A stretch of 64,000 nucleotides of DNA from a virus (Duplodnaviria > Heunggongvirae > Uroviricota > Caudoviricetes). Made by a program: the position numbers and the translations under genes. Of this stretch, positions 3,156 through 4,640 are shown piece by piece. How positions within the stretch are numbered: the stretch's first letter is position 1; each line of letters starts with the position of its first letter. Location: IMG/VR virus record IMGVR_UViG_2585427757_000006, one strand, 5' to 3'. Under the pieces are notes generated by a model that saw only the letters and a list, made by a program, of their open reading frames with translations, did not search any database and was not told the origin of the DNA.

Positions 3156-3542
3156 ATGTCTGACAACAAGATTGAATTTATAGAAAGTCGCTATGCTGCT
3201 TTTATCGCAGGGCTGATTGAATCCTCACCTATGAGTCAGGCCCAAATAGCCAGACTTATTGGTTATAAAAATGCCAACAACCTTTCTTTAATTAAAAGTG
3301 GCAAAATTCCTTTGCCTATCGATAAGGTTCGTCCGTTGGCGCTGGCGCTGGGTATTGAGCCAAGTCGTCTTATGATGATGGTGCTGGAAGAACGCCAACC
3401 TGAACTCGCAGCATTTTTATACAAAGAAGGCACCGCTCCTCTTAACGAGGACGAAAAACAGGTTCTTGCTGCATATAACGAGCGATTCGGTAAAGAGAAA
3501 GGCGCATCACAAAAGGTTGTTGAGGCTATAAAGTCTCTATGA
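3156..3542 (+). CDS. putative helix-turn-helix DNA-binding protein
   Basis: 128-aa ORF; N-terminal segment SQAQIARLIGYKNANNLSLIKSG resembles an XRE-type HTH; convergent with recombinase gene. Confidence 0.45.
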   Translation: MSDNKIEFIESRYAAFIAGLIESSPMSQAQIARLIGYKNANNLSLIKSGKIPLPIDKVRPLALALGIEPSRLMMMVLEERQPELAAFLYKEGTAPLNEDEKQVLAAYNERFGKEKGASQKVVEAIKSL

Positions 3543-4640
3543 AAAATTTACACGAATAAGCTCTGTTGATAGACGATCTCCCTTAAATTTGTGGTCAATT
3601 TCGTCTAAATCCGGTTGCTCTACGATTGATGCGATGTACGTCGAGAAACTTTCTAAGGCGTCTCGCATCTCGTCCATATAATCGTGCCGGTCGTAGACCC
3701 GATCTATCCCCTCAAGACTGTGGTTCATGATTTTACGTGATACCTCCTGGCTTATGCCTAATGCTGGGAAGTAACTACGCGCAGTACGGCGCAAATCTCG
3801 GGGTGTAAATGGCTCAAGCTCCATCAGTTCTGGTCGTTCCAGAATACGACGTAATGCCTGGGCTATTGCCACTTTAGACATAGGAAGGTCTTTCCCGATT
3901 TTTTTATTCGAAGGCACGAGCCACTGGCTGTCTTTACCATATTCGAACAACTCTTCAATACAAGTGCGCATTAATGAGCTTAAAGGCAGAGAATGCTCAC
4001 GGGCAGATTTGTTCCTCTTGCCTTGATTCCAAACCCCACGCTTAAGATTGAACTCACTTTTTTTAGCCCGCAGTACTTCGTCAGGTCGTCTTGCGGATAC
4101 AAGACATAGCCTGGCCGCCCATTTTGTACCAGCACACACATTGAAGTAGTCCCATATATTCCAGAACACCCATACCTCTGCGTCGGTCAGCTTCCGCTCG
4201 CGAGGTGTGGGCTTTGCGCCACCGGCAACTTTGTTTAGTGACATATCGTTTAACGGTGACACGTCTATCATCCCCTGGAAGGCGCACCAGCTAAGGAACT
4301 GCTTCATCAGAGAGAAAACGCGGCGGCCCATAACAATTTTGCCATCCAGTATTAGTGGGTTGACCAGTTGGTTCACCATGAACCTATTAATGTCACTTAC
4401 TTTTACATCGGCAATGTGCGGCAAAACATGTATCAAAATACAATGAACAGCGATCTCTGGCCGACGTCTGGTTATCAGCAGAGATAAGCGAGTGAATAAC
4501 ATGAATGCGTCCGAGAATCTCATGTCATTGCTGACCTGGGAGATCATAACGGCCTGCATTTGAGATGCTCTTTCGAGATACTCTATCGCCTCTTTTGAGG
4601 TGTTCTCCGCAGCGCGTGCTCTGTCAAAGCTATTTTTCAT
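3537..4640 (-). CDS. tyrosine recombinase (phage integrase family); possibly a resolvase in a plasmid context
   Basis: 367-aa ORF; C-terminal catalytic-region-like motifs (ARRPDE, TPRDLRRTARS, VYDRHDY) consistent with R..K..HxxR..Y recombinases. Confidence 0.6.
   Translation of the reverse strand: MKNSFDRARAAENTSKEAIEYLERASQMQAVMISQVSNDMRFSDAFMLFTRLSLLITRRRPEIAVHCILIHVLPHIADVKVSDINRFMVNQLVNPLILDGKIVMGRRVFSLMKQFLSWCAFQGMIDVSPLNDMSLNKVAGGAKPTPRERKLTDAEVWVFWNIWDYFNVCAGTKWAARLCLVSARRPDEVLRAKKSEFNLKRGVWNQGKRNKSAREHSLPLSSLMRTCIEELFEYGKDSQWLVPSNKKIGKDLPMSKVAIAQALRRILERPELMELEPFTPRDLRRTARSYFPALGISQEVSRKIMNHSLEGIDRVYDRHDYMDEMRDALESFSTYIASIVEQPDLDEIDHKFKGDRLSTELIRVNFS

What the first reader, a model, noticed from the sequence alone, without database searches (positions are those of the whole stretch)
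3156..4640. Tyrosine recombinase with convergent HTH gene but no evident attachment site
In a genome with partition genes, a lone tyrosine recombinase may be a multimer-resolution system rather than an integrase. The nearby long inverted repeats (4739-4771, 7082-7159) are candidate sites.
Basis: inference. Interest (0 to 1): 0.4.

Follow-up and report, generated by a model that had tools for sequence, protein, structure and literature searches.

The report
Phage-plasmid recombinase with lox-like site
The gene is a real tyrosine recombinase on an SSU5/pSLy3-type phage-plasmid that is never found in a chromosome, and it sits next to a conserved 33-bp palindromic site, so it most likely keeps the plasmid monomeric, as Cre/loxP does for phage P1, although this family is untested.

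Summary
ORF 3537-4640(-) is a tyrosine recombinase (Int). Its 3' end overlaps a convergent HTH gene at 3156-3542(+). The window is an SSU5/pSLy3-type phage-plasmid with ParA- and ParB-like genes.

Int lacks the arm-binding domain carried by its nearest integrase relatives. In 5,426 complete E. coli genomes, Int and its site occur 252 times, always on plasmids and once per replicon.

The first candidate site (4739-4771) is a perfect 13-7-13 palindrome 98 bp upstream of int. All 108 IMG/VR loci where int could be checked have it 44-100 bp upstream of this int family. Its arms are invariant or change symmetrically with Int clade, and the spacer is always 7 bp. The site also sits beside a solo int on Pantoea and Rahnella replicons of 0.5-0.7 Mb that carry no phage genes.

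The second candidate (7082-7159) is an RNA hairpin behind tRNA-Ser, not a recombination site.

Best reading: a self-contained Cre/lox-like multimer-resolution module. This is inferred; nothing has been tested experimentally.

Three findings were unexpected:
- A conserved LexA box lies in the int promoter.
- A hypervariable cargo segment starts at the site.
- Isolated half-sites within ±7 kb all face the full site.

This is a new member of a known kind, of moderate interest.

The parts
3537..4640 (-). int: 367-aa tyrosine recombinase with a helical N-terminal/core-binding half and a catalytic domain, and no arm-binding domain. Catalytic residues are R185, K211, R281 (in place of His-I), R284, H307 and Y316.
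   Evidence: ORF. Pfam PF00589 2.9e-10. PHROG 1 integrase 4.8e-47. NCBIfam PRK09692 matches only profile positions 137-393 of 413. Catalytic columns. AlphaFold2 model pLDDT 86; best Foldseek matches are lambda Int 75-356, Tn1549 Int, XerA, XerH, IntI and Cre.
4739..4771 (.). Candidate recombination core site: AATGATTCCATAC (4739-4751), spacer ATAGTAG (4752-4758), GTATGGAATCATT (4759-4771). It lies 98 bp upstream of the int ATG.
   Evidence: Perfect 13-7-13 inverted repeat. Arms are identical in E. coli, Kluyvera, Yersinia pMT1, Buttiauxella and Nissabacter elements, and change symmetrically in K. michiganensis-type, Photorhabdus, Providencia, Rahnella and Pantoea elements. In IMG/VR, 108 of 114 loci with the site pattern have this int in the locus, and in all 108 the site lies 44-100 bp upstream of it. 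One site per plasmid and none on chromosomes.
4686..4714 (-). Promoter-like element for int: -35 TTGATC (4714-4709), 17-nt spacer, -10 TAATAT (4691-4686).
   Evidence: Read from the sequence. Both hexamers are conserved in 7 of 8 aligned relatives. It scores 8 of 12 and is below the threshold of the simple scan, so it is inferred.
4667..4686 (-). LexA (SOS) box TACTGTTTACTTATACAGTG between the -10 element and the int start codon.
   Evidence: It is the only match to TACTGT-N8-ACAGT in the 64-kb window. A CTGT-N8-ACAG box lies at a fixed 53-55 bp from the proximal arm in 103 of 117 related loci; its centre varies while its ends are conserved. LexA binding itself is inferred from the consensus.
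3156..3542 (+). HTH regulator gene, convergent with int and overlapping it. Probably the phage-plasmid repressor rather than a recombination factor.
   Evidence: The Cyrano homologue CYRAN_45 is annotated as a putative repressor and is expressed in the lysogen (PMC9928086). The HTH gene is adjacent to int in every phage-plasmid relative examined, but absent beside int on the Pantoea and Rahnella replicons of 0.5-0.7 Mb.
3082..3124 (+). HTH gene promoter TTTACA-16-TAATAT (3082-3109) followed by the palindrome GGTAAGCACTTACC (3111-3124). This is the likely operator of the HTH protein and is unrelated to the 13-mer.
2693..2905 (-). 70-aa ORF divergent from the HTH gene. It is the third member of the conserved orf70-HTH-int module.
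   Evidence: PHROG 2627 at 4.9e-40. Synteny is kept in Nissabacter, Klebsiella, Photorhabdus and Providencia elements.
4772..6982 (.). Hypervariable cargo segment that begins at the distal arm of the site and ends at the terminator 6988-7007.
   Evidence: Only 4 of 5,426 E. coli genomes share 4772-5650, whereas 251 share int plus site. Homology with relatives stops at 4771-4790 and resumes at 6982-7082. In 117 loci there are 38 distal-flank clusters against 10 int-side clusters.
7911..7926 (-). Isolated half-site: one exact arm plus ATC (AATGATTCCATACATC), pointing toward the full site.
8897..8912 (-). Second isolated half-site with the same 16-mer, pointing toward the full site. It overlaps the start codon of the small ORF 8759-8911(-).

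Best explanation
Int (3537-4640, minus strand) and the 33-bp palindrome at 4739-4771 form a self-contained, Cre/loxP-like site-specific recombination module of an extrachromosomal phage-plasmid.

Proposed mechanism: two Int protomers bind the two 13-bp arms, two sites synapse, and strands are exchanged across the 7-bp spacer. With one site per monomer, recombination between the directly repeated sites of a dimer returns monomers that the ParA/ParB system can segregate.

Int expression is held low by LexA and rises on DNA damage, the condition under which these phage-plasmids are induced.

Shown here:
- The enzyme class and its intact active site.
- The absence of an arm-binding domain.
- The strict physical and evolutionary coupling of site and gene.
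- Exclusively plasmid location, with one site per replicon.

Inferred:
- That Int binds these arms.
- That cleavage sites lie 7 bp apart.
- That the biological role is multimer resolution.
- That LexA binds the box.
For: 1. Enzyme. It matches Pfam PF00589 and PHROG 1. The catalytic residues R185, K211, R284, H307 and Y316 sit in invariant or ≥90%-conserved columns of the 35-sequence alignment. The AlphaFold2 model (pLDDT 86) aligns with the core-binding plus catalytic part of lambda Int, and with XerA, XerH, IntI and Cre. There is no Arm-DNA-bind domain, whereas the next-closest homologues (34% identity or less) have one.

2. Site anatomy. The 13-7-13 layout matches the arm and spacer sizes of simple tyrosine-recombinase sites. 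The arms are 26/26 identical between elements whose Int is only 60% identical. Where arms do change, both change in mirror fashion: AAT/ATT to TGT/ACA, and GATTCCATAC to GACTCCAGAC in the clade with 42-50% Int identity. Spacer length is always 7 bp, and spacer sequence differs between lineages.

3. Linkage. 108 of 114 IMG/VR loci carrying the site pattern have this int in the locus. In all 108 the site is 44-100 bp upstream of int. Int plus site occur alone, without HTH or phage genes, on Pantoea and Rahnella replicons of 0.5-0.7 Mb.

4. Lifestyle. There are 255 int matches and 252 site-bearing records among 5,426 E. coli genomes, all on plasmids and one site each. PLSDB holds 933 plasmids with the family, 900 of them non-mobilizable, essentially one copy each. 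ParA- and ParB-like genes are in the window. No other site-specific recombinase is on the near-identical plasmid.

5. Binding protein. The HTH neighbour has a different palindrome at its own promoter, which leaves Int as the likeliest binder of the 13-mers.

6. Simple site. Spacer polarity relative to int is not fixed: four flip pairs were found. This fits a simple site without flanking accessory arms.
Against: - No experiment exists for this family. Phage-plasmid papers mention its tyrosine recombinases only generically.
- A conserved LexA box is not what a housekeeping resolution system obviously needs.
- His-I of the catalytic pentad is Arg throughout the family, and activity is unproven.
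- Exact half-sites elsewhere show that the 13-mer has some use beyond a single crossover site.
- The palindrome followed by a T-run was also picked up as terminator-like.
- Larger cointegrate plasmids carrying the element were joined by IS elements, not at the site.
Confidence: 0.55

Rival explanations
1. The same Int/site pair works mainly in the lytic or infection cycle rather than in plasmid housekeeping. SOS-induced Int would interconvert monomers and concatemers for packaging, or recircularise terminally redundant injected DNA as Cre can do for P1.
For: The LexA box is conserved at a fixed position in 103 of 117 loci and is the only such box in the window. Cyrano, a close relative, is induced by ciprofloxacin (PMC9928086). 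The module sits beside the putative repressor gene, as in a lysogeny module.
Against: Int plus site persist alone on Pantoea and Rahnella replicons of 0.5-0.7 Mb with no neighbouring phage genes. Nissabacter, Photorhabdus, Providencia, Pantoea and Rahnella versions have no LexA box. The site lies about 43 kb from the terminase genes on the 110.7-kb plasmid, so it would fall in the terminal redundancy of only a minority of headfuls. That last point is an inference.
Confidence: 0.2
2. The palindrome is only a regulatory or structural element. It could be an operator for Int autoregulation or for another protein, or a terminator for the HTH transcript that runs antisense through int. The recombinase would then act elsewhere or be vestigial.
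For: The scan flags it as terminator-like on the plus strand, with a 15-pair stem and then GGGCCTTTTT. The HTH and int genes overlap convergently with no terminator between them. The same 13-mer occurs as isolated half-sites, which behaves like a dispersed protein-binding motif. The hairpin is predicted stable as single-stranded DNA, z -4.2.
Against: The T-run starts 7-9 nt after the stem and is absent in type-2 sites. Arm sequence, not just pairing, is conserved over 60% Int identity. Loop length is fixed at 7 nt. The site travels with int even where the HTH gene is absent. The HTH gene has its own, different palindrome.
Confidence: 0.1
3. The module is a cargo-exchange platform analogous to an integron: an SOS-controlled recombinase, its primary site, and a hypervariable gene segment immediately downstream. 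Int-mediated cointegration between co-resident phage-plasmids at the site would drive the swapping of cargo alleles.
For: Homology between near-identical elements stops at the distal arm. One int-side cluster, nearly all with the same spacer (38 of 42 loci), carries 7 distal-flank clusters, and overall there are 38 distal against 10 proximal clusters. The int promoter has a LexA box. The first cargo gene of Cyrano is 723-fold over background in the lysogen (PMC9928086).
Against: No second full site or attC-like element bounds the cargo. The right boundary is a terminator or tRNA region. A conserved element next to any hot spot would produce the same sharp edge. Shared distal clusters across int clades look co-diverged rather than exchanged. 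Int has no detectable affinity to IntI beyond the common fold.
Confidence: 0.08
4. Int is a classical phage integrase that inserts the element into a chromosomal attB.
For: Its closest sequence relatives outside the family are P4-type integrases, and public records annotate it as 'integrase'.
Against: No chromosomal copy of int or of the site occurs in 5,426 complete E. coli genomes. There is no arm-binding domain. The arms are perfectly palindromic and spacer polarity is not fixed. 933 plasmid records carry the family.
Confidence: 0.03

Closest known systems
Cre/loxP of phage-plasmid P1 (and Dre/rox of D6)
   Same: A two-domain tyrosine recombinase without an arm-binding domain. The site has 13-bp inverted arms around a short asymmetric spacer. 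There is one site per extrachromosomal prophage genome. The expected role is multimer resolution, with possible cyclisation.
   Different: There is no sequence relationship beyond the common fold (Foldseek E 0.014 or worse to Cre; lambda Int is much closer). The spacer is 7 bp, not 8. The arm sequence is different. The site is immediately upstream of the gene. The promoter has a LexA box. Half-sites are scattered nearby.
Lambda/P4-type phage integrases
   Same: These are the best structural and sequence matches for the core-binding and catalytic domains. The 7-bp spacer equals the 7-bp overlap region of lambda-family core sites, which is established knowledge.
   Different: This family lacks the N-terminal arm-binding domain. 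It has no arm-type sites and no chromosomal insertion. Its arms are perfectly symmetric rather than imperfect core sites.
Single-recombinase Xer systems (XerH/difH, XerS/difSL, archaeal XerA/dif) and XerCD at plasmid sites (cer, psi)
   Same: Dimer resolution at one short site per replicon, with near-palindromic arms and a 6-8-bp spacer. XerA and XerH are among the structural matches.
   Different: The recombinase here is plasmid-encoded and self-contained. No FtsK or accessory-protein dependence is known or testable here. The arms are 13 bp and unrelated in sequence apart from a short TATGG-like stretch.
Plasmid-borne tyrosine 'resolvases' such as ResD/rfsF of F and Rsd/crs of Salmonella virulence plasmids (from memory, not tested here)
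   Same: A plasmid-encoded tyrosine recombinase with its site next to its own gene, serving multimer resolution of a large low-copy plasmid.
   Different: No sequence comparison was run here. Membership is untested.
Integron IntI/attI platform
   Same: A LexA-repressed recombinase gene, a recombination site just upstream of it, and variable genes starting at that site.
   Different: No attC sites or cassette structure are present. The site is a canonical double-stranded palindrome. Int shows no IntI-specific similarity.
Shufflon Rci/sfx of R64 (from memory)
   Same: A recombinase without an arm domain. Its sfx sites have one conserved arm plus a 7-bp spacer and a non-conserved second arm, which resembles the isolated half-sites here.
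   Different: The predicted inversion junction between inverted half-sites is absent from 219 E. coli plasmids. NCBIfam gave no Rci match.

Membership tests
Tyrosine recombinase superfamily (Pfam PF00589) | Catalytic domain match above the curated threshold | tested here: met
   PF00589 scores 40.6 bits against a cutoff of 27.1, E 2.9e-10. PHROG 1 integrase 4.8e-47.
Tyrosine recombinase superfamily (Pfam PF00589) | Catalytic R-K-H-R-H/W-Y constellation | tested here: inconclusive
   R185, K211, R284, H307 and Y316 are present in invariant or ≥90%-conserved alignment columns. His-I is replaced by Arg (R281) throughout the family, while outgroups with arm domains have His. The effect on activity is unknown.
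Tyrosine recombinase superfamily (Pfam PF00589) | Core-binding plus catalytic C-clamp fold | tested here: met
   AlphaFold2 model pLDDT 86, pTM 0.78. Foldseek gives lambda Int 75-356 at TM 0.73-0.76 normalised on the target, plus Tn1549 Int, XerA, XerH, IntI and Cre.
Lambda/P4-type integrases (heterobivalent) | N-terminal arm-binding domain (Arm-DNA-bind_3 / DUF4102 or the lambda N-domain) | tested here: not met
   No Pfam hit. NCBIfam PRK09692 aligns only from profile position 137. Residues 1-125 are all helical in the model. Homologues at 34% identity or less do carry PF13356.
Lambda/P4-type integrases (heterobivalent) | Integration into a chromosomal attB, giving attL/attR | tested here: not met
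   No chromosomal matches to int or to the 33-bp site in 5,426 complete E. coli genomes. Other host genera were not surveyed as fully.
Lambda/P4-type integrases (heterobivalent) | Core site with fixed polarity relative to flanking arm-type sites | tested here: not met
   The spacer occurs in both orientations relative to int in at least 4 spacer families. No repeated arm-type motif flanks the site.
Simple Cre/lox-type systems (functional class, not a sequence family) | Site made of two inverted recombinase-binding arms of 11-14 bp around a 6-8-bp asymmetric spacer | tested here: met
   A 13-7-13 layout, perfect arms, and an asymmetric spacer with a CTA end in nearly all lineages.
Simple Cre/lox-type systems (functional class, not a sequence family) | Recombinase alone recombines two sites (deletion, inversion or integration, according to orientation) | not testable with these tools
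   This needs an in-vivo reporter or in-vitro assay.
Simple Cre/lox-type systems (functional class, not a sequence family) | Homology to Cre | tested here: not met
   No PDB sequence hit. Foldseek to Cre gives E 0.014-0.1 only. It therefore works like Cre/lox but is not a Cre-family member.
Plasmid multimer-resolution systems | One site per replicon on an extrachromosomal, partition-dependent element | tested here: met
   One site per plasmid in 252 records. ParA- and ParB-like genes are present. 933 PLSDB plasmids carry the family, essentially single-copy.
Plasmid multimer-resolution systems | Loss of the system increases multimers and plasmid loss | not testable with these tools
   This needs genetics.
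Integron (IntI/attI/attC) | attC-bounded cassettes and the IntI-specific domain | tested here: not met
   No second site or repeated element bounds the cargo. No IntI family hit.
Shufflon (Rci/sfx) | Inversions between inverted asymmetric sites visible as alternative arrangements | tested here: not met
   The predicted junction between the dnaE half-site and the 8900 half-site is found in 0 of 219 plasmids.

The most novel reading that the evidence does not exclude
The recombinase-binding arm has been recruited beyond the crossover site. Exact half-sites (arm plus ATC) lie inside dnaE, inside int in some clades, and beside or inside small genes. They are all within about 7 kb and all face the full site. 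Together with the LexA-controlled int promoter and the cargo hot spot that begins at the site, this would make the locus an SOS-triggered, Int-organised domain. The half-sites could act as polar barriers, loading sites or decoys around the resolution site, or the locus could be an integron-like cargo exchange platform for phage-plasmids. Either would be more than a plain resolution system.
Probability: 0.12. Interest if true: 0.7.

Novelty: new member of a known kind. Interest (0 to 1): 0.4.

Why it matters
SSU5/pSLy3/pKpn/pMT1-type phage-plasmids are common in Enterobacterales. They occur in 252 of 5,426 complete E. coli genomes here, 933 PLSDB plasmids carry the Int family, and published work reports that they carry resistance genes. 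Their maintenance functions are largely uncharacterised.

This work assigns a specific 33-bp site to their universally 'integrase'-annotated gene. That corrects the annotation, because the gene is not a chromosomal integrase. It also gives a directly testable resolution system and explains a sharp boundary of a cargo hot spot.

If active, the pair would be a new recombinase and site for genome engineering, unrelated in sequence to Cre. It would come with naturally occurring heterospecific spacers and two natural arm specificities.

The LexA box and the oriented half-sites are small but real surprises that could link SOS induction to plasmid topology.

Tried and rejected
1. Second candidate site, 7082-7159. 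Rejected as a recombination site. It has no similarity to the 13-mer and lies 3 nt behind tRNA-Ser on the minus strand. Its fold is -41 kcal/mol (z -9.35), with two compensatory pairs and an invariant G·U that pairs only in the minus-strand RNA. There is no Rfam match.

2. Chromosomal integration. Searched with the gene plus site and with the 33-bp site alone. There were no chromosomal places.

3. HTH protein as the binder of the 13-mers. Judged unlikely, because its own promoter carries a different conserved palindrome, GGTAAGNNCTTACC. This is not excluded.

4. Shufflon-like inversion between the inverted half-sites in dnaE and at 8900. The predicted junction is absent from 219 plasmids.

5. 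Half-sites as attL/attR-type scars of one insertion. Rejected, because both members read arm plus ATCTCAT rather than arm plus S and arm plus the reverse complement of S.

6. Spacer flips as products of site-specific inversion. Rejected on logic, since conservative exchange keeps each half-spacer with its flank. Hairpin-loop inversion is the likelier cause, which is an inference.

7. Int-mediated cointegrates. The 139-kb, 161-kb and 239-kb plasmids carrying the element are IS-associated fusions with a normal site region.

8. Cargo exchange across different int clades. Shared distal clusters look co-diverged, and the spacer follows the int side.

9. Defence-gene identity of the cargo ORFs. No PADLOC or Pfam hits.

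10. PDB sequence search with Int. No hit.

11. The genome-contig scan with a single protein returned only 5 loci, so diversity was reached instead through protein clusters and IMG/VR.
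Full report
**What the window is**

The region around the finding is 93-98% identical to Escherichia phage-plasmids CMS-2020a, Cyrano (pLF82) and PhiR41_1. 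It is about 74% identical to Klebsiella phage-plasmids.

A near-identical 110.7-kb E. coli plasmid (NZ_JCANNN010000002.1, 98.8% over window 1-7270) carries the following genes:
- a RepB-family initiator;
- a phage-type replisome (dnaE, DnaB-like helicase, primase, ligase);
- CobS/CobT-like genes;
- tail, capsid and terminase genes;
- a ParA/MipZ-like ATPase and two ParB-like proteins.

It has no site-specific recombinase other than the one in the finding. The window itself holds the ParA-like gene at 18565-19233(-) and the ParB_N genes at 52063-52764(-) and 52731-53429(-). The element is an SSU5/pSLy3-type phage-plasmid. The literature describes this group as extrachromosomal, with 'tyrosine recombinases' among its persistent genes, but with no functional study (PMC7969092, PMC9600943, PMC11652158, PMC12977533).

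**Checking the observation**

The two ORFs are as described. The HTH gene is 3156-3542(+), 128 aa. The recombinase gene is 3537-4640(-), 367 aa. They are convergent and their 3' ends overlap by 6 nt.

The recombinase passes the Pfam Phage_integrase threshold and matches PHROG 1 'integrase'. The HTH protein matches PHROG 8 'transcriptional regulator'.

**The enzyme**

In an alignment of 35 family members, R185, K211, R284, H307 and Y316 sit in invariant or ≥90%-conserved columns, and H307 lies nine residues before Y316, as in lambda Int. The first histidine of the pentad is arginine (R281) in the whole family, whereas most more distant relatives have histidine.

NCBIfam's P4-type integrase model aligns only from profile position 137. 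Pfam finds no arm-binding domain. The next-closest homologues (34% identity or less) do carry Arm-DNA-bind_3, and one of them sits at the edge of a typical integrative element.

An AlphaFold2 model (pLDDT 86) has an all-helical N-terminal half and a catalytic domain. Its best structural matches are lambda Int residues 75-356, Tn1549 Int, XerA, XerH, IntI and, more weakly, Cre. The protein is therefore a two-domain tyrosine recombinase. It descends from the P4/lambda branch and has lost the domain that makes integrases directional.

**The site**

Site 4739-4771 reads AATGATTCCATAC-ATAGTAG-GTATGGAATCATT. It is a perfect 13-7-13 palindrome 98 bp upstream of the int start codon.

The arms are 26/26 identical upstream of int in Cyrano, PhiR41_1, two Kluyvera elements, Yersinia pestis pMT1, Buttiauxella and Nissabacter (Int 60% identical). 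They are 25/26 identical in Klebsiella pJN2-26.

Where the arms differ, both change in mirror fashion:
- K. michiganensis-type elements have TGTGATTCCATAC and GTATGGAATCACA.
- The clade with 42-50% Int identity (Photorhabdus, Providencia, Rahnella, Pantoea) has GACTCCAGAC and GTCTGGAGTC.

The spacer is always 7 bp and AT-rich. One end is nearly always CTA, and the sequence differs between lineages. Nineteen distinct site variants (arms plus spacer) were seen in IMG/VR.

A scan of 2.9 million IMG/VR contigs for GATTCCATAC-N7-GTATGGAATC returned 114 loci. In 108 of them this int family is present in the locus, and in all 108 the site lies 44-100 bp upstream of it. The remaining six loci had no int hit, possibly because they are truncated.

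In 5,426 complete E. coli genomes the 33-bp site occurs in exactly the 252 genomes that carry int. It occurs once per plasmid and never on a chromosome. PLSDB holds 933 plasmids with the family, 900 of them non-mobilizable.

On a 508-kb Pantoea vagans replicon and a 723-kb Rahnella victoriana replicon, int and its 13-7-13 site stand alone among ordinary bacterial genes, with no HTH partner or neighbouring phage genes. That these replicons are megaplasmids is my inference from their size. The minimal conserved unit is therefore gene plus site. That is what a self-contained resolution system looks like.

**Who binds the 13-mer**

The HTH neighbour has a different conserved palindrome, GGTAAGCACTTACC (3111-3124), directly after its own promoter TTTACA-16-TAATAT. 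In Cyrano it is treated as the putative lysogeny repressor and is expressed in the lysogen (PMC9928086). Together with a divergent 70-aa ORF it looks like a cI/cro-type switch, and this module travels with int in phage-plasmids. Assigning the 13-mer to Int rests on architecture and linkage. It is an inference.

**Regulation**

Between the site and the int start codon lies a conserved promoter-like element: TTGATC, 17 nt, TAATAT (4714-4686, minus strand). A LexA box, TACTGTTTACTTATACAGTG (4667-4686), abuts it. This is the only such box in the window.

In 103 of 117 related loci a CTGT-N8-ACAG box sits 53-55 bp from the proximal arm. Its centre varies while its ends are conserved. The box is absent in Nissabacter and in the type-2 clade. 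Cyrano is induced by ciprofloxacin. Int is thus probably kept low in lysogeny and raised on DNA damage. This fits a costly recombinase that needs only basal expression. It equally suggests a role at induction.

**Edge of a hot spot**

Of the 251 E. coli plasmids that share int and the site, most alignments stop at 4771. Only 4 genomes share the next 879 bp. Homology with relatives resumes at 6982-7082.

In 117 loci the 400 bp on the int side fall into 10 clusters, while the 400 bp on the other side fall into 38. One int-side cluster, nearly all with the same spacer (38 of 42 loci), carries up to 7 distal clusters.

This is compatible with recombination at the site between co-resident elements. 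It is also what any conserved element beside a cargo hot spot would show. No second site bounds the cargo, and shared distal clusters across clades look co-diverged. Most lineages also keep a loose motif 10-25 bp beyond the distal arm: a T-run followed by A(A/T)TCTGAG. Its meaning is unknown.

**Spacer flips**

The spacer occurs in both orientations relative to int in at least four spacer families: CTACTAT/ATAGTAG, CTATTAA/TTAATAG, CTATAGA/TCTATAG and TTATATA/TATATAA. Conservative site-specific exchange cannot produce this, so small hairpin-loop inversions are the likely cause. The tolerance shows that site polarity relative to its flanks does not matter. That argues for a simple site and against an attP with arm sites.

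**Half-sites**

The exact arm also occurs alone at 7914-7926(-) and 8900-8912(-), and is followed by ATC each time. On complete relatives a third copy lies 255 bp inside dnaE. In SSU5/pKpn-type clades a fourth lies inside int.

On the whole 110.7-kb plasmid they are confined to -6.0, +3.1 and +4.1 kb from the full site. They partly follow the arm variant of their element. They are absent from type-2 elements.

All 151 isolated copies in the IMG/VR loci point toward the full site. They represent only about four positional classes, however, so the orientation rule is suggestive (about 1 in 16) rather than proven.

Two explanations were tested and failed. They are not scars of a single insertion, and the inversion predicted for a shufflon-like system is absent from 219 plasmids. 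The half-sites remain unexplained.

**The second repeat**

Repeat 7082-7159 is unrelated to the 13-mer. It lies 3 nt downstream of tRNA-Ser on the minus strand and upstream of a canonical terminator at 7007-6988. It folds at -41 kcal/mol (z -9.35). Two compensatory substitutions maintain it, and an invariant G·U pairs only in the minus-strand RNA. The loop contains an invariant AAGACUCCGC. Rfam has no match. It is a structured RNA of the tRNA operon, not a recombination site.

**Verdict**

- One of the two proposed sites is the likely substrate and the other is not.
- The system is a P4/lambda-derived recombinase without an arm-binding domain that works like Cre/loxP but is not a Cre relative.
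- Its SOS-controlled promoter, adjacent cargo hot spot and oriented half-sites suggest that it may do more than housekeeping.

I put 0.55 on the Cre/lox-like multimer-resolution model, 0.2 on a mainly lytic-cycle role for the same pair, and about 0.2 in total on the remaining rivals. It is a new, uncharacterised member of a known kind.

Noticed in passing
window 7082-7159 (minus strand): A conserved long hairpin sits directly behind tRNA-Ser and before the terminator 7007-6988. It has a 19-20-bp stem and a 38-nt loop with an invariant AAGACUCCGC. It folds at -41 kcal/mol (z -9.35), with two compensatory pairs and a strand-specific G·U. There is no Rfam family. It appears to be an uncharacterised structured RNA of SSU5-like phage-plasmid tRNA operons.
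   Followed up: partly
window 7911-7926(-) and 8897-8912(-); also plasmid NZ_JCANNN010000002.1 position 14142(+) inside dnaE: Exact copies of one arm of the recombination site plus ATC (AATGATTCCATACATC) are scattered within about 7 kb of the full site, and all face it (151 of 151 in IMG/VR loci, about 4 positional classes). They are absent from the Photorhabdus, Providencia, Pantoea and Rahnella clade. Their function is unknown.
   Followed up: partly
window 4667-4686 (minus strand): A LexA box lies in the int promoter. It is the only one in the 64-kb window and is conserved at a fixed distance from the site in 103 of 117 related loci.
   Followed up: yes
window 2693-3542: A cI/cro-like arrangement: the HTH gene has promoter TTTACA-16-TAATAT and palindrome GGTAAGCACTTACC (3111-3124), and is divergent from a conserved 70-aa ORF (PHROG 2627). 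This is probably the lysogeny switch of this phage-plasmid group.
   Followed up: partly
window 4772-6982: A cargo hot spot containing a 178-aa ORF, a glutaredoxin and a 302-aa ORF (PHROG 35492) with no Pfam or PADLOC hits. This version is shared by only 4 of 5,426 E. coli genomes. Relatives carry other genes here, including an Acb2/Tad1-like anti-defence gene, a YafO toxin, PhoH and Gp49.
   Followed up: partly
window 4772-4800 and the equivalent positions in relatives: A loose conserved motif lies 10-25 bp beyond the distal arm: a T-run then A(A/T)TCTGAG. It is present even in Pantoea, where ATTCTGAG occurs twice. It could be an accessory-factor site or an outward promoter.
   Followed up: no
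Int residue 281 (window about 3798-3800, minus strand): The first catalytic histidine of tyrosine recombinases is arginine in every member of this family, whereas most arm-domain-bearing outgroups keep histidine.
   Followed up: partly
window 8759-8911(-) and 9107-9286(-): Two small paralogous membrane-type ORFs lie downstream of the ligase gene. The first starts exactly within a half-site (MIPYI...). A RefSeq relative annotates a neighbouring small gene as 'after-plasmid-ligase protein AplA'.
   Followed up: no
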